Assembly: GCA_017306015.1 (NCBI GenBank)
Contig: JAFKJK010000012.1
Location: 56,537 to 120,536, forward strand
Direction of reading: 5' to 3'
Length of the DNA: 64,000 nt
Source of the DNA: Propionibacteriaceae bacterium
Lineage (GTDB): Bacteria > Actinomycetota > Actinomycetes > Propionibacteriales > Propionibacteriaceae
In this document: positions 30,245 to 45,277 of the stretch, piece by piece
Numbering within the stretch: position 1 is the stretch's first letter
How the letters are laid out: the number at the start of each line of letters is the position of its first letter
The notes under the pieces: model-generated
What the model was told of the DNA's origin: nothing
The model's database searches: none
What the model saw: the letters and a program-made list of their open reading frames with translations, nothing else
Made by a program: the position numbers and the translations under genes

Positions 30245-30329
30245 GCGGCCTCACGGGCTCGTCCACTGCGCACAAAGAACCCATGTTGTAATTGCTGCGT
30301 TCGTGTGGGTTCTTGCGTATCTTTGTACC

Positions 30330-31124
30330 ATGACGCCTGATGCAGGGGCCAACGAGGGCCGCCTCCTCCCCCACGAACGGCACTTCCGGATCCTCGAACA
30401 GGCCCGGAGCCACTCCCGGGTAGAGGTGTCCGCGCTCGCCCAGGACCTCGACGTCACCACCGAGACCATCCGCCGCGACCTGGCCCTCCTGGAGCGCCAG
30501 GGCCAGCTCCGCCGGGTGCACGGCGGCGCGGTGCACGTCCAGCGGCTCGGGTATGAACCGACCGTGACCGCACGCAAACTGCACCAAGCCGACGAGAAGG
30601 CCCGAATTGGACGCGCCGCCCGCGAGCTCCTGCCCGACGGCGGCTCGATCCTCGTCGACTCCGGGACGACCTGCCTCGAACTCGTCCGCAACCTGCCCGC
30701 CGACCTGCCGATCTCGGTGGTCACCAATTCCCTGCAGGCCAGTTCGCTGCTGGCCGAGCTCCCCCAGGTGGACCTGCTCTTCCTGGGCGGCCGGATCCGG
30801 GACGTGACCGGAGCCGGCGTCGGCACCTGGACGATCGCGGCGCTGGCCAGCATCCACGTCGATGTCGCGTTCGTCGGCGCCAACGGGATCACCCCCGAGT
30901 ACGGCCTGACCACGCCCGACCAGGCCGAGGCCGAGGTCAAGAAGGCGATGGTCGCGGCCGGCTCGAGAGTGGTCTGCCTCGCCGATCACACCAAGATGGG
31001 ACGCACCCAGCTGTGCTGCTTCGCCGACCTGTCGCGGATCGACGTCCTCGTCAGCGACAGCGGCCTGGACGCGGCACTGGCCGACGAGCTCACCGCTGCC
31101 GGACCGGAGGTGATCCGAGCATGA
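30330..31124 (+). CDS. DeoR-family transcriptional regulator (FruR/GatR-like)
   Basis: HTH ERHFRILEQARSHSRVEVSALAQDLDVTTETIRRDLALLERQG, plus a DeoR C-terminal sugar-phosphate sensor domain. Start trimmed to ATG 30330. Confidence 0.85.
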   Translation: MTPDAGANEGRLLPHERHFRILEQARSHSRVEVSALAQDLDVTTETIRRDLALLERQGQLRRVHGGAVHVQRLGYEPTVTARKLHQADEKARIGRAARELLPDGGSILVDSGTTCLELVRNLPADLPISVVTNSLQASSLLAELPQVDLLFLGGRIRDVTGAGVGTWTIAALASIHVDVAFVGANGITPEYGLTTPDQAEAEVKKAMVAAGSRVVCLADHTKMGRTQLCCFADLSRIDVLVSDSGLDAALADELTAAGPEVIRA

Positions 31125-32068
31125 TCGTCACCCTGACCCCCAATCCGAGCGTCGACCGGACGGTCAGCGTCGACGCGCTCGACCGCGGCGCGGTGATGCG
31201 GGCGACCGCCTCCCGCGAGGACCCCGGCGGCAAGGGCATCAACGTCAGCCGCGCGCTCGCCCTCAACGGCACCCCGACCGCGGCCGTCCTGCCGGTCGGT
31301 GGCGCGTACGGCCGGATGATGCTCGCCCTGCTCGAGCCGCTGGAACTGGACGTCCGTCCGGTGACGATCAGCCAGCCGATCCGCGCCAACATCGCCGTCG
31401 TCGAGCCGGACGGCACCACGACCAAGCTGAACGAGCAGGGCCCCGTGCTGCAGCCGGACGAGCTCGACGCGCTGCACCAGGCCGTCCTGGACGCCAGCAG
31501 GGACGCCAGCTGGGTGGTCTGCTGCGGATCGCTGCCCCCCGGCGTCCCGGACGACTTCTACGCCGCGATGGTGCGGCACTGCCACGACGCCGGCCTGAGG
31601 GTGGCGGTGGACTCCTCCGGCACTCCGATGGCGGCCGCGCTGACTGCGGCCCCCGACCTGATCAAGCCCAATCGGATAGAGCTCGCCGAAGCGGTCGGGC
31701 GCGACCTGTGCGACCTCGGCGCCGTTGTGGACGCCGCCCGGGACCTGGTCGCAACCGGAGTCCGTACCGTCGTGGTCAGCCTCGGCCGGGACGGCGCCCT
31801 GCTGGTCGACGCCGACCACGTCGTCCACGCCGCGGCCAGCATCAGCCGTCCGCTGTCGACCGTCGGCGCCGGCGACTCGCTGCTCGCCGGCTACCTCCAC
31901 GGCGTCCACGCCGGGGACGACCCGGCCGCCGCGCTGGCCCGCGCGGTGGCGTTCGGCGCCGCGGCCGTGATGCTCCCCGGCAGCGAGATGCCCGGCCCCG
32001 ACCAGGTGGGGGCGATCGACGTCCGCGTGGATCGCGATCCCGACCCGTCCCGTCCGCTCACCGACTGA
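31121..32068 (+). CDS. PfkB-family hexose-phosphate kinase (1-phosphofructokinase or tagatose-6-phosphate kinase)
   Basis: MIVTLTPNPSVDRTVSV..., GGKGINVSRAL and GAGDSLLAGY are typical of FruK/LacC. Start ATG 31121 overlaps the DeoR stop (ATGA). Confidence 0.85.
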   Translation: MIVTLTPNPSVDRTVSVDALDRGAVMRATASREDPGGKGINVSRALALNGTPTAAVLPVGGAYGRMMLALLEPLELDVRPVTISQPIRANIAVVEPDGTTTKLNEQGPVLQPDELDALHQAVLDASRDASWVVCCGSLPPGVPDDFYAAMVRHCHDAGLRVAVDSSGTPMAAALTAAPDLIKPNRIELAEAVGRDLCDLGAVVDAARDLVATGVRTVVVSLGRDGALLVDADHVVHAAASISRPLSTVGAGDSLLAGYLHGVHAGDDPAAALARAVAFGAAAVMLPGSEMPGPDQVGAIDVRVDRDPDPSRPLTD

Positions 32069-32104
32069 GCGCCGTCCGAGCCCTGCGTGAGCCCCACCTG
32101 AAGT

Positions 32105-32166
32105 TCGCTCCCGAAAGGGACGTTTGCTCCCGAAGTTTCGGGAGCAAACGTCCCTTTCGGGAGCGA
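32105..32166. repeat. 62-bp palindrome (30-nt perfect arms), family 3; possible bidirectional terminator between convergent genes
   Basis: tcgctcccgaaagggacgtttgctcccgaa-gt-ttcgggagcaaacgtccctttcgggagcga. A near-identical element lies at 42682-42741. Confidence 0.9.
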
Positions 32167-32266
32167 ATCGCGAGACGACGGACGGGACGTCGGCGAACGC
32201 AGACGCCGCCGTCCCCCCAGCACCGGGGGACGGCGGCGTCGTCGCGTCGGCCAGGGGCCCGCCAGG

Positions 32267-33310
32267 TCAGGGCTCCACGGTCACCTTGATGGCCTGGCCC
32301 TTGGCGACGATGTCGAAGGCCTCCAGCGCTCGCTCCAGCGGCAGGTGGACGGTGATCAGATCCTTCACCGGCACCACTCCGGAAGCGATGTACTCCAGAG
32401 CCCTCTTGTTGTGCACCGGCGCCGAGCCGTTGGCCCCGTGGATGTGCAACTGTCGGTAGTGCACCAGGTTGGAGTCGCACGTGATCGTCGGATTCGTCTT
32501 CGGCAGGCCGCCGAAGAACGAGATCCGGCCGTTCCGGGCGGCCATGGCGATCGCCTGCTCCTGGGTGATGTTGGCGGCGGTCGCGGTGATCACCACGTCC
32601 GCTCCCCTGCCACCGGTCAGGCGCATCACCTCGGCGACGACGTCGACGGTCGAGGCGTCGATCACCTCGTCCGGCTGGACGGCGGCAGCCGACATGGCCA
32701 GCCGCTCGGCGTTCACGTCGACCAGGAACACCTTCCCGGCCTTGTGCACGCCACGTGCGATCCGGGTGTGGATGCACCCGATCGGGCCCGCACCGAACAC
32801 GACGACCGTGTCGCCCGGCTCGATCCCCAGCAGTTCCTGGGCGTTGATCGCACAGGCGAACGGCTCGGCCGCGGACGCCTCGTCGAAGCCCACGCCGTCG
32901 GGGATCCGGTTCAGCCCGTCCACCTTGAGGACGGCCTGCGGCACCACCATGTACTCGGCGAAGCCGCCGTCGTACTGGTAGCCGATGGACGTCTGGTTCT
33001 CGCAGACGGCCATCCAGCCCTTGCGACACTCGTAGCACTCGCCGCACGGGACGGCGGCGATCACCTGGACGCGGTCGCCGACCGCCCAGCCGGGGACGTT
33101 CGCGCCGACCTCGGCGACCTCGCCGGCCACCTCGTGCCCCATCACCCGCGGTGGGGTGATGTTCTGGTGCCCGTTGTGGAAGATCTTGACGTCCGTGCCA
33201 CAGGTCGAGCAGTTGCGGACGCGGATCAGGATCTCGTCCGCCGTGATCGACGGCTTCGGAGCCTCCTCGACGCGGACGTCCCCCGGTGCGTAGAAGCGCA
33301 GGACCTTCAT
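32267..33310 (-). CDS. Zinc-dependent medium-chain dehydrogenase (sorbitol / galactitol-1-phosphate / threonine dehydrogenase-like)
   Basis: 347 aa; catalytic Zn ligands CGTD...GHEVAGEV, structural Zn CGECYECRKG, Rossmann VVVFGAGPIG. It is the last gene of the PTS operon. Confidence 0.85.
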   Translation of the reverse strand: MKVLRFYAPGDVRVEEAPKPSITADEILIRVRNCSTCGTDVKIFHNGHQNITPPRVMGHEVAGEVAEVGANVPGWAVGDRVQVIAAVPCGECYECRKGWMAVCENQTSIGYQYDGGFAEYMVVPQAVLKVDGLNRIPDGVGFDEASAAEPFACAINAQELLGIEPGDTVVVFGAGPIGCIHTRIARGVHKAGKVFLVDVNAERLAMSAAAVQPDEVIDASTVDVVAEVMRLTGGRGADVVITATAANITQEQAIAMAARNGRISFFGGLPKTNPTITCDSNLVHYRQLHIHGANGSAPVHNKRALEYIASGVVPVKDLITVHLPLERALEAFDIVAKGQAIKVTVEP

Positions 33311-33753
33311 CAGTTCCCTTCCGTCGAATTGAGCAGTGCCAGGACGTCGTCGACCGAGGTGGTGTTCCGCAGCCGCTCGGCGGCCTCGGGCTCCATCAGT
33401 ACCCCGGCGAGGTTGGCCAGGATGTCCAGGTGTTCGTCGGACGCCGAGGCGATCGGGATGCAGAGCACCACCCGATTGCCGTCCCAGTCGATCCCGTCCG
33501 GGAACTGGAGGAAGCCCAGCGCCGCCGAGGTGATGAACTGCCGCGACTCGTTGGTGCCGTGCGGGATCGCCACGCCCTCACCCAGATAGGTGGAGACCTG
33601 CAACTCGCGGGCGAACATGCCGTCGATGTAGTCAGGCGTGGCGGCTCCGGCCTGGACGAGCACCTCGCCACAGAGCCGGATCGCCTCCTGTTTGGTCATC
33701 GAGGGCAGCCCCAGTCGCACCGAAGCCGGCGCCAGGATCTGCTCAGCGGACAA
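33310..33753 (-). CDS. mtlF: PTS EIIA component, mannitol/fructose (EIIA-2) type
   Basis: 147 aa; the active-site region GVAIPHGT and length fit PTS_EIIA_2. The stop overlaps the dehydrogenase start by 1 nt. Confidence 0.8.
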   Translation of the reverse strand: MSAEQILAPASVRLGLPSMTKQEAIRLCGEVLVQAGAATPDYIDGMFARELQVSTYLGEGVAIPHGTNESRQFITSAALGFLQFPDGIDWDGNRVVLCIPIASASDEHLDILANLAGVLMEPEAAERLRNTTSVDDVLALLNSTEGN

Positions 33754-33786
33754 CGCGTCCTCCGTTTCTCGATCGTTCGGACGGTG

Positions 33787-35352
33787 TCAGTGGACGGCGG
33801 GGTCGCCGTTGGCCTGCTTCACCATCTCGACCACATCGTCATACTGCGGCGCGCCGATGAAGTTGTCCACACTGACGTGGACCGCCGACGGCGTCTTGGC
33901 CGTCGCCCGCTCCATCAGGTCCTTGTGGGAAACGACGACATCGAAGCTGTCGTCCAGTCCGGAGATGGCCTTGTTGACGACCTTGACGTCCGGGTAGCCG
34001 GCCGCCTGGATCTTCTTCCGCAGCACCGAAGCACCCATCGCAGAGGAGCCCATGCCCGCGTCGCAGGCGAACACGATCGTCTTGACCGCACCGGCGGGCG
34101 CAGCCACCGCGGTGCCGGTCCGCAGGCCGGCGAGCGCGTCGGACGACTTGCCCTTGTTGGCCTCGGTCTGAGCGATCGCGGACTCGAACTTGTCGGCCCC
34201 GGCAGCCTCGGCCGCGAGGTCACGGCTCCGGGAGGCCCGCAGGATGATCGAGGCGATCACGAACGTCACCGCCGCCGAGAGCAGCACCGAGAGCAGCACC
34301 GCGACGTAGGCTCCGGGCGCGATCTGGGCGATTACGGCGAGGATGCTTCCAGGAGCGGCTGGGGCTCGGAGCGCGCCACCGAGCAGCATGTTGGTGGTGA
34401 CACCGGTCATGCCGCCGCCGATCAGAGCGAGGATCAGGGCGGGCTTCATCAGCGCGTAGGGGAAGTACACCTCGTGGATGCCGCCGATGAACTGGATGAA
34501 GGCAGCACCCGGAGCGGACGCCCTGGCAGCACCGATCCCGAAGATGGTGAAGGCCAGCAGCAGGCCGACGCCGGGGCCGGGGTTGGCCTCGAGGAGGAAC
34601 AGGATCGACCTGCCGGCCGGACCCGAGGCCTCGGAGATGCCCAGCGGGGTGAGCACGCCGTGGTTGATCGCGTTGTTCAGGAAGAACACCTTGGCCGGCT
34701 CGATGATGATGCTCGTCAGCGGCAGCAGGTGGCTGTCGATCAGGAACTGCACCGCACCGCTCAGGATGTGCATGATGCCGTTGACCAGCCAGGCCAGCGG
34801 GTAGAAGCCCACCAGCGCCAGGACGAAGCCCCAGATGCCCGCGGAGTACATGTTGACCAGCATCTCCAGGCCGGCCTTGATCTTGTTCTCCCACAGGCTG
34901 TCCAGCCACTTCATGGAGTACGCGGCGAGCGGGGCCATGATCATGGCGCCGATGAACATGTGGATCTGGCCGAGCGCCTGGAACTTGTCGGCGGGGTTGC
35001 CCGCTGCGGTCCACGCTGCGAGCAGCCGCGCGTTCTCCTGCGCGATCAGCAGGTCGGAGCCGGCCATCACGCCGAAGGTGCCGATCGCGGCCACCACAGC
35101 GCCACGGACGCCGTAGACCATGTGGCCGCCGGTGTAGGCGATCAGGATCGGCAGCAGGTAGTGGATGAACGGGCCGACGATCGTCGACAGATCCTCGTTC
35201 GGGGTGAAGCCGGCGCCGATGAAGAACATCGTGAAGATGCCCCAGGCGATCAGCGCGGGGATGTTGGGCATGATCATGCCCGACAGGAAGGTGCCGAAGC
35301 GCTGAACCGCTGCCCTGGCCGATCCCTTCTGGGCCGTTACTTCGGTGGTCAT
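33787..35352 (-). CDS. mtlA: PTS mannitol-family EIICB component
   Basis: 521 aa; the N-terminus VQRFGTFLSGMIMPNIPALIAWGI resembles MtlA EIIC; C-terminal EIIB with phospho-Cys FACDAGMGSSAMGAS. Confidence 0.85.
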   Translation of the reverse strand: MTTEVTAQKGSARAAVQRFGTFLSGMIMPNIPALIAWGIFTMFFIGAGFTPNEDLSTIVGPFIHYLLPILIAYTGGHMVYGVRGAVVAAIGTFGVMAGSDLLIAQENARLLAAWTAAGNPADKFQALGQIHMFIGAMIMAPLAAYSMKWLDSLWENKIKAGLEMLVNMYSAGIWGFVLALVGFYPLAWLVNGIMHILSGAVQFLIDSHLLPLTSIIIEPAKVFFLNNAINHGVLTPLGISEASGPAGRSILFLLEANPGPGVGLLLAFTIFGIGAARASAPGAAFIQFIGGIHEVYFPYALMKPALILALIGGGMTGVTTNMLLGGALRAPAAPGSILAVIAQIAPGAYVAVLLSVLLSAAVTFVIASIILRASRSRDLAAEAAGADKFESAIAQTEANKGKSSDALAGLRTGTAVAAPAGAVKTIVFACDAGMGSSAMGASVLRKKIQAAGYPDVKVVNKAISGLDDSFDVVVSHKDLMERATAKTPSAVHVSVDNFIGAPQYDDVVEMVKQANGDPAVH

Positions 35353-35535
35353 CTGACGTCCTCACTGACGAAGAGTGGCGGGCGGCTACCCACAGCGGGC
35401 AGCCGACCTGTGTTATGCGAGGATAAAACCACCGACTCGGGCACATGTCAAGCAAAACCAACACAGATTCGCACAAGAACGGGCGACGCCCGGCCGGGGA
35501 TCCCAAGCACTCCCCAGCCGGACGCCGGGCACCCG

Positions 35536-37587
35536 TCAGTTCCGCAGCGAGTACAGCCAGGCCAGCAGGTACGTCCTGCTCATCCCGTCGTCGAGATCGG
35601 ACGCCGGGAGGCGCTTCGCGGCGGCGATGGCCTGGTCGCGGTCCTGCGTCCCGGCCAGCGCCGAGTACATCAGGATGTAGTCGCCGAACTTCTGGTCGAC
35701 GTTGCCCTGCACCGCTTCGGCGACATTCGCCCGGATCCGCTCGGGGTCACCGGCCAGATAGGTCGACGACGGGCTCATCGGCAGCAGCAGGATCCCCAGC
35801 TTCGCCGCGGACGCGGCCGAGAACCAGGTGGCGTAGTCCCGCTTCCCGCCCCAGTTCAGCACCACGATCTTGTGCCCGTAGCCGGCGAACTCCGGCTGGC
35901 TGAGGTCGGGGTTCGTCCAGTACGCCGTGCTGGACGCCGCCTCGAGCGACAGCATCCAGTCCGCCTCGGCCTGCAGGGCGGCGTCCCCGGTCGCGCGCGC
36001 CCACAGTCCGAGCCCGGCGTAGGCGTTGACGGCCTCGGCCACCGACTCCTGGTTGTTGCCGTCGGCGAACGGCGAGGTGCCGGACGCCCACGAGTGCCCG
36101 GCGTACGGGTCGAAGTCGCGGCGGTCGGGGAACAGGCTGCTGCCCGAGCTGCCGATGTCGGCGGCCAGCAGGTTCATCACCGGCGCGTACCGCTCGACCA
36201 CGGACGGGTCGTGCTTCGCCATCACCGCCGCGGCGTAGAGGAAGTAGCCGTAGTGGAAGTGGTGGTCGTTGTACTCGTCGCTGCCGAACGACGGGGTGAG
36301 CCCGACCAGCCCCTTGCCCTTGGCGTCGTAGACGAAGCAGCCGGCGTCCCGCTCGGTGCAGCCCTGCGGCTGCGTCCAGGCGGTCAGCTGCTCGTCCAGG
36401 CTCTTGGCCAGTTCGTCCGCCTGGTCCTTCTGGCCGAGCTGATCGGCAACCATCAACAGCATCGCCTGCCGCTGCAGCGCCTTCCCGCCGAAGTAGGTGT
36501 CCTGCGGGAACTCCGGCTTGGCGGCGGCGTCCGCCGTCAGCGCCTCGGTCACCGCCGCGCGGCCGTCCGCGGGAACCGGACCGAGGTCGAGCGACGCCTT
36601 CGGCTGCTGCCGCGCCGTCTCCCAGCTGATCTCCGAGCCCCGGCACACGCTCATCGTCCCGTAGACGGACGCGTACGAGCCCAGATCGCAGCCCTCGGCC
36701 GTCCCCTGGTGGGGCAGCCGGGCGACCGCCTGTGCTCCGGGATAGCCGAGCGTCGTCGTCACCTGCTGGTCGCCCACCTGGTAGCCGACCTTCGAGGCGG
36801 TCGGGACGCCGGCCAGCCCGGCGAGCTCGTCGGCCTGGTGGTCGGCGGGCACTGCCCAGAACACCAGCGAGCCGCCAGCGGCCACGGCGGCCTTCGACCC
36901 GGACAGCTGCGCGTTCACCAGCTTCACCGCGTAGGGCTTGCCTGCGGCGGTGAAGGTGAACACGCCGCTGCCGGCGTCCGACAGGCCGTCGGGGAGCTGG
37001 ACGTCGGTGGCGCGGGTCGCCGTCCAGGCGACGAACGGCCAGCCCTCGGCGATCGTCACCCGTCCGCTCTCGGCACCGGAGGCATCCTTCTGCGCAGCCG
37101 TCACCACGATCGGGTCGTCGCTGGTGACCACCGAGGACGCCGCGCCCACCGAGACCGGGACGTCGGCGGAGTAGCCGCCGGCGATCGTGTCGGCACCGGC
37201 CTTGACCGTCGGCAGCCCGAAGGCGAACCCGTCGTCGGTGAGCGCGAACGACAGCGGCAGCGGGAACACCGGCTGCGGCTTGTCGCCGAACACCAGCCCC
37301 GAGTACCACCGGTTGGTCGGCGGCGTCAGGCCGTCGGCGAGCCGTGGCGCCGACAGCGCCTTCGGGGTGCGCTGCGTCATGCCGTCCACAAGGCCCTTCA
37401 CCTGGGCGTCGCCGAGCACGACGGCGCCGGCGGGCGAGGACGCCGGCGGAGCGCCGGGGACGCCGGTGCAGCCGGCGAGCAGCAGGGCGCAGAGCGCAAG
37501 CAGAATGGCGGCGGCTCTGCGGCGGAAGTCCCGGGTCACCCCGGCGAAAGCCGGGACCGAGAGGGGACGGGAGTGTCGGGCGCTCAT
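35536..37587 (-). CDS. Glycoside hydrolase family 81 (endo-beta-1,3-glucanase-like) lipoprotein
   Basis: From ORF 35536..38472, trimmed to ATG 37587, which overlaps the upstream stop (ATGA). Signal peptide with lipobox LLAGC. GH81 signatures YNDHHFHYGYFLYAAA, GHSWASG and GNNQESVAEAVNAY. Confidence 0.85.
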   Translation of the reverse strand: MSARHSRPLSVPAFAGVTRDFRRRAAAILLALCALLLAGCTGVPGAPPASSPAGAVVLGDAQVKGLVDGMTQRTPKALSAPRLADGLTPPTNRWYSGLVFGDKPQPVFPLPLSFALTDDGFAFGLPTVKAGADTIAGGYSADVPVSVGAASSVVTSDDPIVVTAAQKDASGAESGRVTIAEGWPFVAWTATRATDVQLPDGLSDAGSGVFTFTAAGKPYAVKLVNAQLSGSKAAVAAGGSLVFWAVPADHQADELAGLAGVPTASKVGYQVGDQQVTTTLGYPGAQAVARLPHQGTAEGCDLGSYASVYGTMSVCRGSEISWETARQQPKASLDLGPVPADGRAAVTEALTADAAAKPEFPQDTYFGGKALQRQAMLLMVADQLGQKDQADELAKSLDEQLTAWTQPQGCTERDAGCFVYDAKGKGLVGLTPSFGSDEYNDHHFHYGYFLYAAAVMAKHDPSVVERYAPVMNLLAADIGSSGSSLFPDRRDFDPYAGHSWASGTSPFADGNNQESVAEAVNAYAGLGLWARATGDAALQAEADWMLSLEAASSTAYWTNPDLSQPEFAGYGHKIVVLNWGGKRDYATWFSAASAAKLGILLLPMSPSSTYLAGDPERIRANVAEAVQGNVDQKFGDYILMYSALAGTQDRDQAIAAAKRLPASDLDDGMSRTYLLAWLYSLRN
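37529..37558. repeat. Family-2 hairpin embedded in the GH81 signal-peptide n-region
   Basis: tcccgggtcaccccggcgaaagccgggacc has one mismatch to 25068-25097. Here it is read on the opposite strand as SVPAFAGVTRDF. Confidence 0.85.
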
Positions 37588-38318
37588 CGCAGACCCACCT
37601 GCTGGAGGAGGTCGTTGACCGCGTCCGTCACCGGCGCGAGCGGGCCGGAGTCGACCAGCTGGACGTTGACCACCACCGGCGTCCCGGGCTCGCTGAGCGT
37701 CGGCTGGGTCAGGGTCAGCAGTTGCGGGGAGTCGAGCTTCAGCGTGGCGACGGTGCCGTCCACGCTGTTGGCGACCGACACCTTCGTGACCGAGGCGGTG
37801 ATCACCTGGTCGTTCGGCAGCACCACCCGGGCCTCCGCGCCGGGGACGACCCGGGCGTAGTCGCGGGGCGCGAGGTGGAAGCTCGCCTCCAGGTAGCGGT
37901 CGCCGCCGTACAGCTTCGCCAGCGCCCCGCCGGCCGGAACCGAGTTGCCCTGGCGGGCGTTGAGCTCCTCGATCGTGCCCGCGGACACCGCGTAGTAGGT
38001 GATGATGCCCCGCTTGGCGTCCACGTTGTAGGCCGGCGTGTCGGATACCTCGAGGCCGTTCGCGATGTCCTGCTTGAGCTGCAGGCTCTGCACCTGGAAC
38101 AGCTCCTCGCCGGCGGTGACGGAGTCGCCCTCGTCGACGAACTGGCGGACGACGGTGCCGGCGTGGTCGGCCCCGATGCTGTAGGTGTCGGCGTTCACCT
38201 GTCCGGTGTAGCTGGACACCTGGTTCTGCCGATGGTTGAACACCAGCGCGAGAGCGAGCGTGAACAGGATCACGCCGAGGACGCCGCCGAGCAGGCGGAA
38301 GCGGTTGTTCCAGGTCAT
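37584..38318 (-). CDS. Membrane-anchored HlyD/membrane-fusion-protein-like protein lacking a coiled-coil hairpin
   Basis: 244 aa with an N-terminal TM helix (LLGGVLGVILFTLALALVF). Lipoyl-like half motifs VVRQFVDEGDSVTAGEELFQV and VSAGTIEELNARQGNSVPAGGALAKL, then a beta-barrel-like C-terminus. ATGA overlaps on both sides. Confidence 0.6.
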   Translation of the reverse strand: MTWNNRFRLLGGVLGVILFTLALALVFNHRQNQVSSYTGQVNADTYSIGADHAGTVVRQFVDEGDSVTAGEELFQVQSLQLKQDIANGLEVSDTPAYNVDAKRGIITYYAVSAGTIEELNARQGNSVPAGGALAKLYGGDRYLEASFHLAPRDYARVVPGAEARVVLPNDQVITASVTKVSVANSVDGTVATLKLDSPQLLTLTQPTLSEPGTPVVVNVQLVDSGPLAPVTDAVNDLLQQVGLR

Positions 38319-40048
38319 CGGGACACTCCTTCATGGGCGCTGGCGGGGATGAGCCGGCGCGCCGGGACGCGGGCTGCGGTCGGCTCCAGGACGGGCTCGG
38401 CCGCGCGAGCGGGTTCAGGGACCGGGGTGGTCGAGACCACCGGGGCGAGTTCGGGCTGGTGGTGCGAGTCACGTCGGAACGCCTCGGCGAGGGCGACGGC
38501 CATGAACACGCCGAGCGCGGCGGTGTTGGTCAGGTTCCAGGCCGTTGCCAGGGAGAACTGGGAGTTGTTGAGGTCGCGCCAGATCGCCACCACCGAGGTC
38601 AGGGCGAGGAACACGAACAGGTAGACCTGTGGCCGGATGAACGTGAACGGCGACGACCGGCGTCCGCTCGCCCCGGTGACGTGCCAGGACTGCTCCCTGC
38701 CGCTGAACGCGTTCAGCAGCGCCTGGTGGTAGATCGGGAAGCTGGCGGTGGCCAGCAGCAGCACCTCCCAGCGGAACGAGCCCAGGGTGAAGCTGGCGAG
38801 CAAGATCTGCATCACGTAGAAGCCGCAGTAGAACAGCACCCACTGCCAGATGCTGGTGCCCAGGGTGACCGGGCGCAGGTCGAAGAAGATCTCCAGCGCC
38901 GGCACCATCAGCAACAGGCCCGGCGCGATGCCGGTCAGGTAGTGGGTGGACGTGACGAAGTACATCAGCCGCTGGTCGAGGGTGAGCTTGCGGCGCGGGC
39001 TCAGCGGGTTGTGGGTGAACAGGATCTCGAAGCCCCCGGTCGCCCAGCGCAACTGCTGCTTGGTGTAGGCCTCGATGGTGTCGGGCGCGTCGCCGGTCGC
39101 GAGCACGTCGGGGATGTAGACGCTGCGCCAGCCACGCTCGTGCAGCATCAGGGACGTCCAGACGTCCTCGGACGCCGAATCGGTGTAGAGCCCGCCGACG
39201 TCGTCGATGGCCGTCCGCCGGAAGACCACGTTCGTGCCGACGCAGAAGGCCGCGTTGAAGTGGTTTCGTCCAGGCTGGACGAAGCGGTAGAAGACGGTCT
39301 GCATGTAGCCGGCGCCGCGGGACACGAAGTTGCGCAGGTTGCCGTAGTGCTGCGGCGTCTGGACGAAGGCCACGTTGGCGTCGGTGAAGAACGGCATGGT
39401 CTCGATCAGGAACCGCTCGTCGGGGACGAAGTCGGCGTCGAAGATGCAGAAGTAGTCGGTCTTCACCTGGCTGAGGGCGTGGTTCACGTTGCCGGCCTTG
39501 GCGCCGCCGCTGGTCAGCCGGCGCAGGTAGCTCACCCCGATCCGGGCGGCCATCTCGCGCACCTCGTCGCTGCGGCCGTCGTCGAGGATGTAGGTCACGT
39601 GCCGGCCGATGATGGCCTTCGCGGCGCGCGCCGTCCGCTCGATCACCTCGACCGGCTCCCCATAGCAGGGCACCAGCACGGCCACGCTGACGTCGCGTCC
39701 GTCCAGCTGGACGGGGGTGTCCGGGCCGGGGACGGGGGTTCCGTCGAAGAGGTGGCGGCGGGTCTCGTAGTAGGCGTCGTCCCGGGGGCTGCGGGCGCCG
39801 GCGAGGATCGTCCACATCGCCAGCAGGGCGTGGACGACCAGGACGGTCTCGGCCGCGATCACGATCGCGTAGGGCAGGAAGTCGCCACGGTTGGCGGGGT
39901 TCAGCAGGAAGGCCGAGTAGGCCAGGATGCCGATGGTGGCGATCAGCGTGAGCAGGATCATCACCGGCGAGTAGGGGTTTCGGGTCTGTTGTCGTCTGGT
40001 CGCCTCGTCAGGGCCGGCGACCGCTTGGAGGTCGTGGGCTGCTGTCAT
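38315..40048 (-). CDS. Processive family-2 glycosyltransferase (cellulose/curdlan-synthase-like beta-glycan synthase)
   Basis: From ORF 38315..40258, trimmed to ATG 40048 (MTAAHDLQ...). Motifs: VLVPCYGEP, DADFVPD, QTPQHY, SEDVWTSLMLHERGW, QQLRWATGG. There are TM helices on both sides of the catalytic domain. I recognised no PilZ domain. Confidence 0.85.
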   Translation of the reverse strand: MTAAHDLQAVAGPDEATRRQQTRNPYSPVMILLTLIATIGILAYSAFLLNPANRGDFLPYAIVIAAETVLVVHALLAMWTILAGARSPRDDAYYETRRHLFDGTPVPGPDTPVQLDGRDVSVAVLVPCYGEPVEVIERTARAAKAIIGRHVTYILDDGRSDEVREMAARIGVSYLRRLTSGGAKAGNVNHALSQVKTDYFCIFDADFVPDERFLIETMPFFTDANVAFVQTPQHYGNLRNFVSRGAGYMQTVFYRFVQPGRNHFNAAFCVGTNVVFRRTAIDDVGGLYTDSASEDVWTSLMLHERGWRSVYIPDVLATGDAPDTIEAYTKQQLRWATGGFEILFTHNPLSPRRKLTLDQRLMYFVTSTHYLTGIAPGLLLMVPALEIFFDLRPVTLGTSIWQWVLFYCGFYVMQILLASFTLGSFRWEVLLLATASFPIYHQALLNAFSGREQSWHVTGASGRRSSPFTFIRPQVYLFVFLALTSVVAIWRDLNNSQFSLATAWNLTNTAALGVFMAVALAEAFRRDSHHQPELAPVVSTTPVPEPARAAEPVLEPTAARVPARRLIPASAHEGVSR

Positions 40049-40195: not shown

Positions 40196-40339
40196 CGCTA
40201 ACGAAGATCGGCGGCCATCCCAAACGGGTGCGCAAGCCTGCGTAGGCGATTCACTCAATCGTTACACCAGCGCAGCGGAGCTGGTTCCTGCCACCCGGCA
40301 CCTCGCTCGGGCGGAGCGGGAGCGCGCCAAGCGACGGCT

Positions 40340-41215
40340 GTCGTCCAGGCGTGCGCCGGGACCTCCGCCGGACAGCGCCCCCTTCTCCGGGAAGAGATCC
40401 CGGGTCAAGCCCGGGACGACAAGCCCAGCCGGAGCCCAGCCGCCCGGCTGGGCCTCACCCCGCCCACACCCACCAGCCGCACCCGCCATCGCCGCGAAAG
40501 CCGGGACCTCCGCCGAACAGCGCCCCCGTTCTCCGGGAAGAGATCCCGGGTCAAGCCCGGGACGACAGACCAAGCGAGATCACACCCTGCCGGGCTCACG
40601 ACCCAGCCGCACCCACTCGTCATCCCGGCGAAAGCCGGGACCTCCACCGAACAGCCGTACTCACGGACGCGATCCCGGGTCAAGCCCGGGACGACAGAAC
40701 CCAGGCGAGAACACACACCCGGCCGGGTCCACGTCCCAGCCACGCCCACTCGTCATCCCGGCGAAAGCCGGGACCTCCGCCGGAAAGCAGCCGTACTCCC
40801 GAGACGCGATCCCGGGTCAAGCCCGGGATGACGACCTTTGCAGTTCGACCATGACCACTGCGACCGCGTCCCTGTCATCCCGCCGAACGCCGGGACCTCC
40901 GCCGAACAGCGCCCCCTTCTCCGGGAAGAGATCCCGGGTCAAGCCCGGCACGACAGGAACCAGGCGAGAACACCCGGCCGGGTCCACGTCCCAGCCGCAC
41001 CCACTCGTCATCCCGGCGAAAGCCGGGACCTCCGCCGGAAAGCAGCCGTACTCCCGAGACGCGATCCCGGGCCAAGCCCGACGACGACCTCTGCAGTTCG
41101 ACCACGACCACGGCGACCGCGTCCCCGTCATCCCGGCGCACGCCGGGACCTCCGCCTAACAGCACCCCGTTCTCCGAGACGAGATCCCGGGTCAAGCCCG
41201 GGACTACCCACCCCG
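40340..41215. repeat. ~875-bp intergenic array of seven composite family-2 units (120-137 bp each)
   Basis: H2 (cgtcatcccggcgaaagccgggacctccgcc) occurs near 40350, 40487, 40619, 40752, 40875, 41007 and 41127. H1 (gatcccgggtcaagcccgggacgac) occurs near 40396, 40542, 40671, 40809, 40930, 41063 and 41183. The inter-hairpin segments are also related, with a ~256-bp higher-order repeat. Confidence 0.9.
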
Positions 41216-41229
41216 GGCCTCGGGACGGC

Positions 41230-42522
<1,293 letters not shown>

Positions 42523-42741: not shown

Positions 42742-42802
42742 AACTCGGAGAGCGCTACGATGAGAGCGCTTGCAGGCCCAGTACCTCACCGGGGAGGAAT
42801 CG

Positions 42803-45277
42803 ATGCAGTTCGGGCATTTTGACGACGCGGCACGCGAATACGTCATCACCACGCCACGCACTCCGTATCCGTGGATCAACTACCTCGGCAGTGAGAAGTT
42901 CTTCTCGCTCCGGTCCCAGCTCGGCGGCGGCTACTCGTTCTATCTCGATGCCCGGATGCGTCGGCTCACCCGCTACCGCTACAACAATGTCCCCACCGAC
43001 GCCGGCGGCCACTACCTCTATGTCAACGACGGCGGGGACGTCTGGTCGCCCACCTGGATGCCGGTGCAGGCTGACCTGGACTACTTCGAGGCCCGGCACG
43101 GCCTCGGCTACACCACGATCACCGGCGAGCGCGGCGGCGTCCGGGTGCAGACGACGTCCCTCGTCCCGATCGGGGAGAACGCCGAGGTTCAGAAGGTCAC
43201 GGTCACCAACAAATCGGACGCTGACAAGCGGGTGAGCCTGTTCTCCTTCGTCGAATTCGCCCTGTGGAATGCCTACGACGACCAGACCAACTACCAGCGG
43301 AACCTGTCCATCGGCGAGGTCGAGATCGAGCCGTCCACCCCGTCCGGCGGCTCGGCGATCTACCACCGCACCGAGTACCGCGAGCGCCGCAACCACTACG
43401 CCGTCTTCGGCGTGAACGTGCCGGCAGCCGGCTTCGACACCGACCGGGACACCTTCCTCGGCGGACCGTACGCGAGCTTCGCCGACCCGGCGGTGGTCCG
43501 TGCGGGACGCGCCGGCAACTCGGTCGCGTCCGGCTGGTACCCGATCGGCTCGCACCAGGTCGACCTCGACCTGGCGCCGGGCGAGTCCCGCGAGCTCGTC
43601 CTCGTCCTGGGCTACGAGGAGAACCCCGAGGACGCCAAGTGGGCGGACGACGCCCACCAGATCATCGTCAAGGACGGCGCTCATGCGCTGCTCGCGCGAT
43701 TCGCGACCGGATCGGCCGTGGACGCGGCGCTGGCCGAACTGGCGGCGTACTGGAACGACCTGCTGTCGACCTACACCGTGGAGTCCACCGACGAACGACT
43801 CGACCGGATGGTCAACACCTGGAACCAGTACCAGTGCATGGTCACGTTCAACATGTCCCGGTCGGCGTCCTACTTCGAGACCGGAATCGGCCGCGGGATG
43901 GGCTTCCGCGACTCCAACCAGGACCTGCTCGGCTTCGTCCACCTGGTGCCGGAGCGGGCGCGCGAGCGGATCATCGACATCGCGTCCACTCAGTTCGCGG
44001 ACGGCAGCGCCTACCACCAGTACCAGCCGCTGACCAAGCGCGGGAACAACGACATCGGCTCCGGCTTCAACGACGATCCGCTGTGGCTGGTCGCCGGCGT
44101 CGCGGCCTACCTGAAGGAGACCGGGGACGACTCGATCCTCGACGCCCCCGTCCCGTTCGACAACGAGCCGGGGACGGAGGTGCCCTTGTGGGAGCACCTC
44201 GTCCGCTCGTTCGAGTTCGTGCTCAGCCACCTCGGCCCGCACGGCCTGCCCCTGATCGGACGCGCCGACTGGAACGACTGCCTCAACCTGAACTGCTTCT
44301 CGGCCACCCCGGGGGAGCCGTTCCAGACGACCGAGAACAAGGCTGGAGGGGTCGCCGAATCGGTGTTCATCGCGGCCCAGTTCGTGCTCTACGGAGGCGA
44401 GTACGCGACGATCGCGCGGCGCCGGGGCCTGGCGGACGTCGCCGAGCGCGCCGAGGCCGAGGTGGAGAAGATGCGCGCCGTCATGCTGGAACACGCCTGG
44501 GACGGCGAGTGGTTCCTGCGCGCGTACGACTACTTCGGCGAGCCGGTCGGCACGGGGGCGGACACCGAGGGACGGATCTGGATCGAGCCGCAGGGCTTCG
44601 CGGTGATGGCGGGGGTCGGAGTGGGCTCAGGCCCCGACGACACGGCAGCGCCGGCGGTACGCGCGCTGGACTCGGTCGGCGACCTGCTCGGCTGCGAGCA
44701 CGGCCTGGTGCTGCAGTACCCGGCGTACACCACGTACCGGATCGAGCTGGGCGAGGTGTCCACCTATCCGCCGGGCTACAAGGAGAACGGCGGCATCTTC
44801 TGCCACAACAACCCGTGGGTGATCATCGCCGAGACCGTCGTCGGACGCGGCGAGCGCGCCTTCGACTACTACCGCCGGATCACGCCGTCGTACCGGGAGG
44901 AGATCAGCGACGTCCACAAGCTCGAGCCCTACGTCTACGCGCAGATGATCGCCGGCAAGCAGGCTTCCCGGATGGGCGAGGCGAAGAACTCCTGGCTCAC
45001 CGGGACGGCTGCGTGGACGTTCGTCGCCGCATCGGCGTATCTGCTGGGGGTCCGTCCCGACTTCGACGGTCTCGTGGTCGACCCGCAATTGGGTCCCGAC
45101 GTGCCGTCCTTCACCGTCACCCGCAAGGTGCGCGGCGCCACCTACCGGATCGAGGTCACCAACTCCGGCGTCCCAGGTTCGCGGGCCCGGCTGGAGGTCG
45201 ACGGGAGGCCGATAGACGGCAACCGGGTTCCGTACGCGCCAGCCGGGTCGGTAGTGCGGGTGCGCGCGACGCTGTAG
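42803..45277 (+). CDS. GH94 cellobiose phosphorylase
   Basis: From ORF 42770..45277, with ATG 42803 preceded by ggggagga. The N-terminus [31 protein letters not shown]...[19 protein letters not shown] closely resembles known cellobiose phosphorylases as I recall them; ~824 aa. Confidence 0.88.

What the first reader, a model, noticed from the sequence alone, without database searches (positions are those of the whole stretch)
35536..40048. GT2 synthase + coiled-coil-less HlyD-like protein + GH81 lipoprotein: candidate beta-1,3-glucan exopolysaccharide machine
Seen in the sequence:
- Three minus-strand genes are joined by ATGA start/stop overlaps (38315-38318 and 37584-37587), so this is very likely one translationally coupled operon.
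- Gene 1 is a 577-aa multi-TM GT2 with the processive beta-glycan synthase motif set (DADFVPD, QTPQHY, SEDVWTSLMLHERGW, QQLRWATGG). It ends in a Pro/Ala-rich tail in which I recognised no PilZ-like domain.
- Gene 2 is a 244-aa N-terminally anchored protein with two lipoyl-like half motifs and a beta-barrel-like C-terminus, as in HlyD/membrane-fusion proteins, but with almost no alpha-helical hairpin.
- Gene 3 is a lipoprotein (lipobox LLAGC) with unambiguous GH81 signatures (YNDHHFHYGY, GHSWASG, NNQESVAEAVNAY).
Established knowledge:
- Synthase-dependent EPS loci pair a GT2 synthase with an accessory protein and a hydrolase of matching linkage specificity (bcsA-bcsB-bcsZ; Streptomyces cslA-glxA-cslZ).
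- GH81 enzymes are beta-1,3-glucanases.
- A cyanobacterial cellulose synthase was reported to need a HlyD-like partner.
- Some actinobacteria (Cellulomonas flavigena, as I recall) make curdlan-type EPS by genes that remain poorly defined.
Inference: the trio could synthesise, translocate and trim a beta-1,3-glucan. The MFP-like protein would play a BcsB-like role in a monoderm envelope. I do not know of a characterised system with this architecture.
Basis: partly seen in the sequence, partly recalled or inferred. Interest (0 to 1): 0.8.

Follow-up and report, generated by a model that had tools for sequence, protein, structure and literature searches.

The report
Three-gene beta-glucan export cassette, actinobacteria
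A tightly coupled three-gene operon (a cellulose-synthase-like enzyme, a stripped-down "membrane fusion" adaptor and a membrane-tethered beta-1,3-glucanase) is conserved as a unit in well over eighty species, mostly Gram-positive actinobacteria, and most likely makes, exports and trims a curdlan-like beta-1,3-glucan, a system nobody seems to have characterised.

Summary
Three minus-strand genes are joined by ATGA overlaps: a GT2 synthase (38315-40048), a 244-aa HlyD-like protein (37584-38318) and a GH81 lipoprotein (35536-37587).

- **Domains confirmed.** HMMs, PDB sequence searches and AlphaFold/Foldseek all agree. The GT2 is BcsA-like with about 7 TM helices and no PilZ domain. The middle protein has a true membrane-fusion-protein fold without the alpha-hairpin, like Borrelia BesA. 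The GH81 keeps its catalytic Asp/Glu/Glu motifs.
- **Conserved cassette.** All 78 species-level loci with enough contig have the same order and strand, and so do all 8 further complete loci, including three from 40-42% GC organisms. The 4-nt overlaps recur, and no fourth gene is conserved.
- **Best reading.** This is a synthase-dependent beta-glucan secretion module for a single-membrane envelope. The hairpin-less adaptor would replace BcsB. The GH81 suggests a beta-1,3 linkage, but that is inferred, not shown.
- **Precedent exists.** The architecture resembles rhizobial bgsBA-TolC and cyanobacterial xcsABC, so this is a new variant of a known kind.
- **Open points.** A link to Cellulomonas curdlan is not established. 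I found no paper characterising the system.

The parts
38315..40048 (-). GT2 processive beta-glucan synthase, 577 aa. About 7 TM helices (2 N-terminal, 5 C-terminal) and a cytosolic GT-A domain. Motifs: DDG, FDADFVP, QTPQHY, AFCVGTN, SEDVWT, QQLRW, WHVTG. Disordered Pro/Ala tail at 531-577, no PilZ.
   Evidence: E. coli BcsA 5.9e-50; AF2 model pLDDT 70.9, helices listed; Foldseek BcsA 1e-25. Start at 40048 is supported by homologue N-termini (H5 nearly invariant and D6 invariant).
37584..38318 (-). Short membrane-fusion-protein (periplasmic adaptor)-like protein, 244 aa. N-terminal TM anchor (3-27) with conserved cytosolic stub MTWxNRxRL, barrel-sandwich (lipoyl-like) domain, beta-barrel domain and a C-terminal helix (228-241). 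The alpha-hairpin is reduced to an 8-residue helix.
   Evidence: pLDDT 85.8; ZneB/MacA/EmrA/MexA/AcrA at E about 1e-9; BesA rmsd 3.6-4.1 A; 127 50%-identity clusters at E<=1e-30, most full-length members 233-260 aa.
35536..37587 (-). GH81 endo-beta-1,3-glucanase-family lipoprotein, 683 aa. Lipobox LLAGC (Cys40). Catalytic motifs NDHHFHYGY and NNQESVAE.
   Evidence: Glyco_hydro81C 205.7 bits; 6fop 2.8e-55; BH0236 2e-46; fungal GH81 7e-31; lipobox in at least 65/78 orthologues; catalytic motifs in 76/79.
38315..38318 (-). ATGA overlap: GT2 stop and MFP-like start (translational coupling).
   Evidence: The same 4-nt overlap occurs in 64/79 species loci and in Paraoerskovia, Curtobacterium and 'Cellulomonas sp. 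PhB143'.
37584..37587 (-). ATGA overlap: MFP-like stop and GH81 start.
   Evidence: A 4-nt overlap with a lipobox-bearing start occurs in at least 45/78 loci.
35480..35492 (-). Terminator-like GC hairpin followed by a T-rich tail, 44 nt after the GH81 stop. Probable end of the operon.
   Evidence: This is a consensus match only; 2 were found against 1.6 expected in the scanned region, so the evidence is weak.

Best explanation
The three genes form one self-contained, synthase-dependent beta-glucan secretion module adapted to a single-membrane (monoderm) envelope.

1. **Synthase (homology).** The GT2 polymerises UDP-glucose on its cytosolic GT-A domain, using the D, D, D and QxxRW motifs. It threads the chain through its own roughly 7-helix channel, as BcsA does.
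2. **Adaptor (fold shown, role inferred).** The 244-aa MFP-like protein is anchored by one TM helix. Its conserved cytosolic stub and its barrel-sandwich and beta-barrel domains would sit, probably as an oligomer, over the extracytoplasmic exit of the synthase. It would take the place of BcsB, as BgsB and XcsB do in diderms. It has lost the alpha-hairpin because there is no TolC-type outer-membrane channel to dock.
3. **Hydrolase (inferred).** The GH81 is lipid-anchored on the outer face of the membrane. There it cleaves, releases or later re-mobilises the polymer, as BcsZ and CslZ do for their glucans.
4. **Polymer (inferred).** Operon-encoded hydrolases of synthase-dependent systems match their polymer, and all characterised GH81 enzymes are endo-beta-1,3-glucanases. 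The product is therefore most likely a curdlan-like beta-1,3-glucan.
5. **Regulation (inferred).** Control is not through a PilZ domain. The C-terminal tail is short, variable and disordered, so control is probably transcriptional or through an unknown partner.
For: **Operon and coupling:**

**Conservation as a unit:**
- Order GT2, MFP, GH81 on one strand in 78/78 species loci.
- The same trio in all 8 complete loci reached by other routes, and fragments of it on two short contigs.
- Flanking genes differ between families, and no fourth gene is present in more than 22/80 loci.
- Identities of the three proteins co-vary (Spearman 0.74-0.82).

**Synthase type:** BcsA 5.9e-50 by sequence. CelA HMM scores 244.6 bits, far above PgaC and NodC. 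Foldseek gives BcsA 1e-25 and plant CesA about 1e-14, ahead of hyaluronan and chitin synthases. The GT2 is 35% identical to the MLG synthase BgsA.

**Adaptor fold and missing hairpin:**

**GH81 identity, catalytic residues and anchoring:**

**Precedent that MFPs are required partners of GT2 glucan synthases:** PMC13438883 and PMC12430437.

**No BcsB, PilZ or riboswitch:**
Against: - No experiment exists on any member, and polymer identity is inferred from one hydrolase family alone.
- The GT2 is about equally distant from cellulose synthase BcsA (30-36% identity) and the mixed-linkage synthase BgsA (35%). CrdS could not be compared.
- The family-specific active-site changes are uninterpretable for linkage: AFCVGTN in place of FFCGS, and SED in place of TED.
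- The loci were mostly collected starting from the MFP-like protein, so 'always together' is conditional on that protein. Only two reciprocal look-ups from the GT2 were made.
- No physical GT2-MFP interaction could be modelled.
- In C. fimi, of the only Gram-positive genus with proven curdlan production, GH81 and CrdS-like GT2 genes are not adjacent.
Confidence: 0.6

Rival explanations
1. The machine is the same, but the polymer is not a plain beta-1,3-glucan. It could be a mixed-linkage beta-1,3/1,4-glucan like the BgsA product, a branched beta-1,3-glucan (with 1,2 or 1,6 branches), or a cellulose-like chain. In that case the GH81 would act only on beta-1,3 stretches or would have a diverged specificity.
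For: The GT2 is as close to the MLG synthase BgsA (35%) as to BcsA. BgsA also works with an MFP. Linkage cannot be read from GT2 sequence; RiGT2 and BcsA are indistinguishable by model (PMC10374906).
Against: From my own knowledge, not tested here: characterised GH81 enzymes need consecutive beta-1,3 linkages. The catalytic and substrate-groove motifs are strictly conserved in the orthologues. No branching glycosyltransferase is conserved next to the cassette.
Confidence: 0.2
2. The GH81 is not part of the synthesis or export step. Instead it is the re-utilisation enzyme of an extracellular storage glucan. The cell deposits beta-1,3-glucan when carbon is in excess and the tethered GH81 later mobilises it. 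This variant is compatible with the main model for the GT2 and the MFP.
For: Curdlan is proposed as a storage polymer in C. flavigena, and how it is re-used is unexplained (PMC3544764). Carriers include glycogen-accumulating sludge bacteria (Micropruina, Microlunatus). The GH81 is a full-size endo-glucanase with intact catalytic residues.
Against: Tight translational coupling means the hydrolase is made together with the synthase, not later. No oligosaccharide uptake or phosphorylase genes are conserved beside the cassette. The nearby GH94 is a cellobiose phosphorylase and is not conserved with the cassette.
Confidence: 0.25
3. The product is a cell-envelope glycan (a wall-associated or septal/tip glucan as with Streptomyces CslA) rather than a released exopolysaccharide. 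The MFP-like protein and the GH81 would manage its passage through and insertion into the peptidoglycan layer.
For: The actinobacterial precedent CslA-GlxA-CslZ pairs a PilZ-less GT2 with a membrane-tethered glucanase (own knowledge). The cassette is chromosomal and widespread in non-biofilm specialists.
Against: No peptidoglycan-modifying or LPMO partner is conserved. The cassette is absent from many close relatives and sits beside mobile-element genes in one locus (L092). That pattern fits an accessory trait rather than a core wall component.
Confidence: 0.1
4. The three genes are neighbours without a common function. The MFP-like protein would serve an unlinked ABC or MFS exporter, and the GH81 would degrade foreign (fungal) glucan.
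For: Databases name the middle gene 'multidrug resistance efflux pump' or 'HlyD family efflux transporter adaptor'. Some bacterial GH81s are secreted antifungal or degradative enzymes, for example Celf_3773 GH81-CBM6.
Against: 78/78 conserved order, overlapping stop and start codons, and persistence of the trio down to 23-29% MFP identity and 40% GC. No transporter gene is conserved nearby, and the GH81 here lacks any CBM and is membrane-tethered.
Confidence: 0.03

Closest known systems
BgsB-BgsA(-TolC) mixed-linkage beta-glucan system of Sinorhizobium meliloti
   Same: A BcsA-like GT2 without a PilZ domain is encoded in one operon with a HlyD-family MFP that is genetically required (PMC13438883). 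The GT2 here is 35% identical to BgsA over the catalytic domain.
   Different: BgsB is 410 aa; as a TolC-docking adaptor it presumably has a full hairpin, which I did not check. Gene order is MFP then GT2. There is no hydrolase gene. The host is diderm. BgsA binds c-di-GMP at its C-terminus. BgsA keeps an FCCGS-type motif and TED. Only the N-terminal half-lipoyl region of BgsB aligns with the protein here (hhalign probability 27%).
Cyanobacterial XcsA-XcsB-XcsC (type IV bcs) cellulose system
   Same: Synthase + HlyD-like MFP + endoglucanase, in one conserved operon in S. elongatus and N. punctiforme. The MFP is proposed to replace BcsB (PMC12430437).
   Different: XcsA has PilZ. XcsB is modelled to bridge to TolC. 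The hydrolase is described as an endoglucanase for cellulose, not a GH81. The host is diderm. Sequences were not compared here.
BcsA-BcsB-BcsZ bacterial cellulose synthase
   Same: Closest solved structures for the GT2, with the same catalytic motifs and gating-loop position. The logic of pairing a synthase with a matching endo-glucanase is the same.
   Different: There is no BcsB, PilZ or BcsC. The NCBIfam CelA score of 244.6 bits is far below the 699.1 cut-off. There are about 7 TM helices in the model. FFCGS becomes AFCVGTN and TED becomes SED. The hydrolase is GH81 rather than BcsZ, which is a GH8 (family from my own knowledge).
Streptomyces CslA-GlxA-CslZ
   Same: From my own knowledge: an actinobacterial, PilZ-less BcsA-like GT2 with an accessory extracytoplasmic protein and a membrane-tethered glucanase.
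   Different: The accessory protein is a copper radical oxidase, not an MFP, and the hydrolase is a GH6.
Agrobacterium CrdA-CrdS-CrdC curdlan synthase cluster
   Same: The only genetically defined bacterial linear beta-1,3-glucan synthase is also a BcsA-like GT2 with seven TM helices (PMC10819609).
   Different: The partners CrdA and CrdC are of unknown function. Neither an MFP nor a hydrolase is reported for the cluster.
BesA of Borrelia burgdorferi and Gram-positive MFP homologues
   Same: BesA is the solved MFP that lacks the alpha-hairpin (own knowledge). It gives the lowest rmsd to the model (3.6-4.1 A over 195 columns). Precomputed Pfam hits include the BSH_YknX family.
   Different: BesA works with an RND pump and an outer-membrane factor (own knowledge). 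Known Gram-positive MFPs partner ABC transporters (own knowledge). None is known to partner a glycosyltransferase.
Characterised bacterial GH81 endo-beta-1,3-glucanases (the best PDB match 6fop; Bacillus halodurans BH0236)
   Same: Best PDB sequence matches (2.8e-55 and 2e-46), with the catalytic Asp/Glu/Glu motifs conserved.
   Different: Those are secreted degradative enzymes, with CBMs or dockerins (own knowledge). This one has no CBM, is a lipoprotein and is translationally coupled to a synthase.

Membership tests
Processive membrane-embedded GT2 beta-glycan synthases (BcsA/CesA/CrdS/BgsA type) | D, D, D, QxxRW catalytic signature in a cytosolic GT-A domain | tested here: met
   DDG, FDADFVP, SED and QQLRW align column for column with E. 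coli BcsA. They are conserved in nearly all of 120 homologues (DDG 120/120, FDADF[VI]P 114, SED 119, QQLRW 119) and in most of 79 species loci (SED 73, QQLRW 68).
Processive membrane-embedded GT2 beta-glycan synthases (BcsA/CesA/CrdS/BgsA type) | Own transmembrane channel flanking the GT domain; overall BcsA fold | tested here: met
   The AF2 model has helices 28-48, 57-83, 371-388, 400-421, 427-449, 467-494 and 500-529. Foldseek top hits are BcsA at 1e-25 to 5e-21. The model pLDDT is only 70.9.
UDP-forming cellulose synthase BcsA (NCBIfam TIGR03030 / NF008558 equivalogs) | Score above the curated equivalog cut-off | tested here: not met
   244.6 bits against a cut-off of 699.1, and 204.7 against 992.
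UDP-forming cellulose synthase BcsA | C-terminal PilZ domain (c-di-GMP receptor) | tested here: not met
   No PilZ hit in Pfam. The alignment to BcsA stops at residue 531, before the BcsA PilZ region. Residues 531-577 are disordered. The tail is variable in length and composition among homologues.
UDP-forming cellulose synthase BcsA | Adjacent BcsB partner gene | tested here: not met
   The only conserved neighbours are the MFP-like gene and the GH81 gene. Gene lists of 8 loci show no BcsB domain.
Curdlan synthase CrdS / crdASC system | Orthology to Agrobacterium CrdS | not tested
   No CrdS sequence was reachable: crdASC lies on the linear chromosome and was not recognisable among the PLSDB hits listed. 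The 'Curdlan synthase' annotated in PLSDB sits beside a hemolysin D gene, as bgsA does (BgsA-like by context).
Curdlan synthase CrdS / crdASC system | crdA and crdC partner genes flanking the synthase | tested here: not met
   The cassette holds only an MFP-like gene and a GH81 gene, and nothing else is conserved. CrdA and CrdC sequences themselves were not available for a direct search.
Membrane fusion / periplasmic adaptor proteins (HlyD, MacA, AcrA, EmrA) | Barrel-sandwich (split lipoyl) domain plus beta-barrel domain | tested here: met
   Pfam HlyD_3 39.8 bits (cut-off 22.2) and HlyD_D23 31.6 bits (cut-off 30). Foldseek finds ZneB, MacA, EmrA, MexA, AcrA, CusB and BesA, with the best at E about 1e-9.
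Membrane fusion / periplasmic adaptor proteins (HlyD, MacA, AcrA, EmrA) | Alpha-helical hairpin (coiled coil) that docks the outer-membrane factor | tested here: not met
   Only helix 79-86 lies between the two half-lipoyl motifs. Most full-length family members are 233-260 aa. The lowest-rmsd match is BesA, which lacks the hairpin (own knowledge).
Tripartite GT2-MFP-TolC glucan exporters (BgsBA-TolC, XcsAB-TolC) | Outer-membrane factor partner and diderm envelope | tested here: not met
   The named hosts are Actinomycetota. No TolC-like gene appears in the neighbourhoods examined. Whole genomes were not searched.
Tripartite GT2-MFP-TolC glucan exporters (BgsBA-TolC, XcsAB-TolC) | MFP gene co-transcribed with and required by a BcsA-like GT2 | tested here: inconclusive
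   Co-transcription is strongly implied by the 4-nt overlaps in 64/79 species. Whether the MFP is required cannot be tested with these tools.
Glycoside hydrolase family 81 | GH81 catalytic domain above the Pfam threshold, with homology to solved GH81 structures | tested here: met
   Glyco_hydro81C 205.7 bits (cut-off 25.6). PDB matches: 6fop 2.8e-55, 5t49 2.2e-46, 4k35 8.6e-31.
Glycoside hydrolase family 81 | Conserved catalytic Asp (DHHFHYGY) and two Glu (NQES..E) | tested here: met
   Present in the window protein, in 76/79 orthologues and in the low-GC members. Assignment of these residues as catalytic rests on my own knowledge of published GH81 structures.
Glycoside hydrolase family 81 | Endo-beta-1,3-glucanase activity | not testable with these tools
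   Needs an enzyme assay on curdlan, laminarin or pachyman against CMC and lichenan.
Bacterial lipoproteins | Signal peptide ending in a lipobox [LVI][ASTVI][GAS]C | tested here: met
   RRRAAAILLALCALLLAGC, with Cys40. A lipobox-like motif occurs in at least 65/78 orthologues. The low-GC members instead have a TM or signal anchor. Lipidation itself is not testable here.

The most novel reading that the evidence does not exclude
This cassette is the first genetically defined beta-1,3-glucan (curdlan-type) synthase system of Gram-positive bacteria. In it, a hairpin-less membrane fusion protein has been recruited as the obligatory extracytoplasmic partner of a glycan synthase in place of BcsB. 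It is carried by plant-associated Curtobacterium and Microbacterium, by wastewater Micropruina and Microlunatus, and by human oral Arachnia and Actinomyces. It would therefore be an unrecognised bacterial source of beta-1,3-glucan, which is recognised by the immune receptor Dectin-1, in plaque, the phyllosphere and sludge flocs.
Probability: 0.45. Interest if true: 0.75.

Novelty: new variant of a known kind. Interest (0 to 1): 0.62.

Why it matters
- **A gap in Gram-positive EPS biology.** Synthase-dependent polysaccharide systems of Gram-positive actinobacteria are barely known, and the genes for Gram-positive curdlan-type EPS were still undefined in the papers I could read.
- **A compact, testable candidate.** This three-gene cassette recurs in well over eighty species (121 loci matched the adaptor in the genome scan). 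It could be moved as one unit into a production host.
- **A clean test of what MFPs do for glycan synthases.** With no outer membrane, any requirement for the adaptor must reflect a role at the synthase itself, such as activation, chain guidance or oligomerisation. It cannot reflect bridging to TolC. That bears on the unresolved BgsB and XcsB models.
- **Biological reach if the product is beta-1,3-glucan.** Carriers in the human mouth, on leaves and in activated sludge would be making a polymer with known immunological, gelling and flocculating properties.
- **A handle for specificity studies.** The invariant AFCVGTN and SED signature marks this GT2 family and can be used to study linkage specificity.

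Tried and rejected
1. **Riboswitch or other RNA regulator.** An Rfam scan of the whole window found nothing.
2. **Nearby GH94 as a laminaribiose-recycling partner.** Rejected. It is a cellobiose phosphorylase (1543 bits to 2cqs). It is conserved next to the cassette in only 2 of 80 loci.
3. **Obtaining CrdS for a phylogeny.** Two tblastn searches of PLSDB gave BcsA, BgsA and other HlyD-linked GT2s, but no recognisable crdASC. The entry annotated 'Curdlan synthase' sits beside a hemolysin D gene, as bgsA does. I dropped the tree and relied on HMM scores and fold ranking instead.
4. **Showing the cassette in Cellulomonas flavigena or C. fimi.**
   - Locus-tag searches found nothing.
   - Supplementary tables show the C. 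fimi GH81 tags (Celf_3545, Celf_3773) are not adjacent to the CrdS-like GT2 tags (Celf_3456, Celf_3585). The link is therefore unproven, and the linked form looks unlikely in that species.
   - Paraoerskovia and 'Cellulomonas sp. PhB143' do carry the cassette.
5. **A fourth conserved gene.** All-against-all clustering of flanking ORFs found none.
6. **BCCP or E2 annotation of some MFP-like members**. I treated this as mis-annotation caused by the lipoyl-like half-domains. The fold search gives MFPs.
7. **Sigma-70 promoter scan.** It found nothing and is not informative for this organism.
8. **Literature searches** for GH81 with a synthase operon, or for curdlan in the carrier genera, found no characterisation.
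9. **Complex prediction** of the GT2 with the MFP was not possible with the tools.

Full report
**1. What is in the window**

The region 35536-40048 holds three minus-strand ORFs in a 70% GC genome.
- A 577-aa GT2 at 38315-40048.
- A 244-aa protein at 37584-38318.
- A 683-aa protein at 35536-37587.

The two junctions read cgATGAcc and cgATGAgc, so each stop codon overlaps the next start by 4 nt. A terminator-like GC hairpin lies 44 nt after the last stop at 35492-35480; this is weak evidence. Downstream follows an unrelated PTS and sugar-alcohol block. Upstream lies a 1.2-kb repeat-filled spacer and then purA. The closest homologues point to a Propionicimonas-like member of the Propionibacteriaceae.

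**2. Identity of the three proteins**

*GT2*
- Pfam gives Glyco_tranf_2_3 and Cellulose_synt.
- NCBIfam ranks CelA (244.6 bits) far above PgaC (69), MftF (51) and NodC (36). The CelA score is well below the equivalog cut-off of 699.
- The best solved relatives are E. coli and Rhodobacter BcsA (5.9e-50 and about 2e-42).
- The alignment places DDG, AKAGNVN, FDADFVP, QTPQHY, SED and QQLRW on the BcsA catalytic motifs.
- Three changes stand out: BcsA FFCGS is AFCVGTN, TED is SED, and the gating loop FxVTxK is WHVTG.
- AFCVGTN is invariant in the 120 closest database homologues, and SED(V/I)WT and QQLRW are present in 119 of them. AFCVGTN and SEDVWT are in 73 of 79 species loci, QQLRW in 68, with QQQRW in 7 more. 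The low-GC members keep AFCVGTN and SEDIWT, with QQLRW in two and QQQRW in one.
- The AF2 model (pLDDT 70.9) has two N-terminal and five C-terminal TM helices around the GT domain. Residues 531-577 form a disordered tail.
- Foldseek ranks BcsA (1e-25) ahead of plant CesA (about 1e-14), hyaluronan synthase (5e-12) and chitin synthase (4e-9).
- There is no PilZ domain. The tail varies in length and composition and is short and Lys-rich in low-GC members.

*Middle protein*
- Pfam gives HlyD_3, HlyD_D23 and Biotin_lipoyl. NCBIfam gives sub-threshold hits to RND, EmrA, HlyD and CzcB adaptors.
- The AF2 model on a 56-sequence alignment (pLDDT 85.8) shows a TM helix (3-27), a barrel-sandwich domain and a beta-barrel domain. 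A C-terminal helix spans 228-241. Only an 8-residue helix (79-86) sits where adaptors carry their coiled-coil hairpin.
- Foldseek finds ZneB, MacA, EmrA, MexA, AcrA and CusB, the best at E about 1e-9. The lowest rmsd (3.6-4.1 A over 195 columns) is to Borrelia BesA, which from my own knowledge is the solved adaptor lacking a hairpin.
- A profile search of 1.8 billion representatives finds 127 clusters at E<=1e-30. Most full-length members are 233-260 aa, so the short form is a family trait.
- The cytosolic stub is strongly conserved: W3 and R6 are invariant, and M1, T2 and N5 nearly so.

*GH81*
- Pfam gives Glyco_hydro81C at 205.7 bits.
- The best PDB matches are the GH81 entry 6fop (2.8e-55), Bacillus halodurans BH0236 (2e-46) and a fungal endo-beta-1,3-glucanase (7e-31). 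There is a weak match to the N-terminal sandwich domain as well.
- NDHHFHYGY and NxQESxxE are present here and in 76 of 79 orthologues.
- The N-terminus carries a lipobox (LLAGC), as do at least 65 of 78 orthologues.

**3. Is it a functional unit?**

*Synteny from the adaptor.* I scanned one genome per species with an alignment of the MFP-like protein. This gave 121 confirmed loci, of which 80 were returned.
- The order is GT2, MFP, GH81 on one strand in all 78 loci whose contig is long enough. The other two are cut by contig ends.
- The GT2/MFP 4-nt overlap is kept in 64 of 79 loci. An MFP/GH81 4-nt overlap is kept in at least 45 of 78.
- Identities of the three proteins to the window fall together across species (Spearman 0.74-0.82).
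- Clustering of all flanking ORFs finds no other gene in more than 22 of 80 loci.

*Different surroundings.* Gene lists from Paraoerskovia, Curtobacterium, 'Cellulomonas sp. PhB143', Brooklawnia and an abundant metagenomic lineage show the same trio in quite different contexts.

*Distant members.* The most distant members of the short-MFP family that I could look up (profile E 1e-25 to 1e-35) come from organisms with 40-42% GC.
- They share 23-29% MFP identity, or none detectable by tblastn in one case (L090), and 47-52% GT2 identity.
- They still have the trio, with the same GT2 signature.
- Their GH81 carries a TM or signal anchor instead of a lipobox.

*Carriers named by the sources*:
- Propionibacteriaceae: Propionicimonas, Microlunatus, Micropruina, Friedmanniella, Naumannella, Raineyella, Arachnia rubra, Tessaracoccus.
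- Microbacteriaceae: Curtobacterium, Microbacterium, Marisediminicola, Gryllotalpicola, Conyzicola.
- Cellulomonadaceae and other families: Sanguibacter, Serinibacter, Lapillicoccus.
- Actinomyces polynesiensis and A. provencensis.

*Caveat.* Most loci were reached through the MFP-like protein, so the statement is 'where the adaptor is, the other two are'. Only two look-ups started from the GT2.

**4. Mechanism**

*Shown by homology:* a BcsA-type processive synthase with its own channel, a true adaptor fold without a hairpin, and a catalytically intact, membrane-tethered GH81.

*Established elsewhere:*
- HlyD-type adaptors are genetically required partners of BcsA-like glucan synthases that lack BcsB. 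Transposon hits in bgsB abolish mixed-linkage glucan production, and TolC is also needed (PMC13438883).
[quoted passage not shown] There the adaptor is proposed to be equivalent to BcsB (PMC12430437).

*Inferred:*
- In a monoderm there is no TolC to reach, which explains the loss of the hairpin.
- The adaptor's remaining domains would act at the synthase exit, through chain guidance, activation or oligomerisation.
- The conserved cytosolic stub and TM helix would contact the synthase.
- The GH81 plays the BcsZ/CslZ role of cleaving or releasing the chain. Alternatively it re-mobilises deposited polymer.
- The linkage follows from two rules I know but could not test. Operon hydrolases match their polymer, and all characterised GH81s are endo-beta-1,3-glucanases.

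I put 0.85 on 'synthase-dependent beta-glucan module' and 0.6 on the full statement including beta-1,3.

**5. Comparison with known systems**

- The GT2 is about equally distant from BcsA (30-36% identity) and BgsA (35%). It fails the BcsA equivalog threshold and lacks both PilZ and BcsB, so it is not a cellulose synthase by the curated definitions.
- It works like the BgsBA and XcsABC class. It fails their defining tripartite features: no outer-membrane factor, no hairpin and no diderm envelope.
- Only the first half-lipoyl segment of BgsB aligns to the adaptor (hhalign probability 27%).
- The Agrobacterium crdASC cluster shares the predicted product but has different partners. CrdS could not be compared.

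*Cellulomonas.* Each sequenced species has two CrdS-like GT2s and two GH81s, and curdlan genes were undefined in 2013. Celf_3456/Cfla_3154 is 576 aa, the size of the GT2 here. However, the C. fimi GH81 tags (Celf_3545, Celf_3773) are not next to the GT2 tags (Celf_3456, Celf_3585). The linked cassette is therefore not evident in that species.

**6. Novelty and verdict**

Public annotations call the genes 'glycosyltransferase', 'cellulose synthase (UDP-forming)', 'multidrug resistance efflux pump' and sometimes 'biotin carboxyl carrier protein'. Seven literature searches found no paper that links GH81 to a synthase operon or characterises this system.

The kind of system, a GT2 synthase with an MFP and a hydrolase, is known. 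Four features are new:
- a Gram-positive setting;
- a hairpin-less adaptor family dedicated to a glycan synthase;
- a GH81 partner;
- a GT2 subfamily with its own active-site signature.

The finding is real, robust and directly testable, and I rate its interest at 0.62.

Noticed in passing
window 40260-41230 (also 24091-24115 and 25129-25153): The spacer between the GT2 start and purA holds about 7 tandem-like copies of a 120-135-nt element. Its palindromic cores are GTCATCCCGGCGAAAGCCGGGAC and GATCCCGGGTCAAGCCCGGGAC. One unit folds into a long hairpin (-52.7 kcal/mol, z -2.4). Relatives have only about 290 nt in this spacer (for example L001), and the core occurs once in the 94 fetched loci. 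It looks like a genome-specific MITE/REP-like repeat.
   Followed up: partly
window 42770-45277 (+): An 835-aa GH94 enzyme nearly identical in profile to the solved cellobiose phosphorylase 2cqs (1543 bits). It lies next to the cassette in only two of the 80 loci (L004, L005), so it is not part of it.
   Followed up: yes
window 30303-35352: Downstream block of unrelated sugar metabolism. On the minus strand: PTS EIICB (33787-35352), EIIA (33310-33753) and a Zn-dependent alcohol dehydrogenase (32267-33310). On the plus strand: what look by eye like a DeoR-type regulator (30303-31124) and a PfkB-like kinase (31013-32068). Only the first three were run against Pfam.
   Followed up: partly
L090, L091, L092 (metagenomic contigs, 40-42% GC): The same GT2-MFP-GH81 trio occurs in low-GC organisms of unknown taxonomy. 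The GT2 signature AFCVGTN/SEDIWT is kept, but the GH81 has a TM or signal anchor instead of a lipobox. In L092 the trio lies beside resolvase, TraG/VirD4-like, AbiV and Mrr genes, hinting at horizontal transfer.
   Followed up: partly
P0282/P0480 cluster (Arachnia rubra, seen on 565 contigs); P0290 cluster (Actinomyces polynesiensis, A. provencensis): The adaptor family is present in Arachnia rubra and Actinomyces species, which I know as human-associated (partly oral) bacteria. I did not inspect their gene neighbourhoods.
   Followed up: no
L082 (Rhizobium leguminosarum CB782 plasmid) and PLSDB hits H82, H73-H79: Several rhizobial and Bradyrhizobium plasmids carry GT2 + HlyD pairs. One GT2 is annotated 'Curdlan synthase' although its neighbour is a hemolysin D gene, the bgsBA arrangement. 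This looks like a probable mis-annotation.
   Followed up: partly
P0280 and P0367 clusters: Some members of the short adaptor family are named 'biotin carboxyl carrier protein' or 'E2 dihydrolipoamide acyltransferase' by their source. The likely cause is the lipoyl-like half-domains. For P0367 the gene sits in the GT2-GH81 trio.
   Followed up: yes
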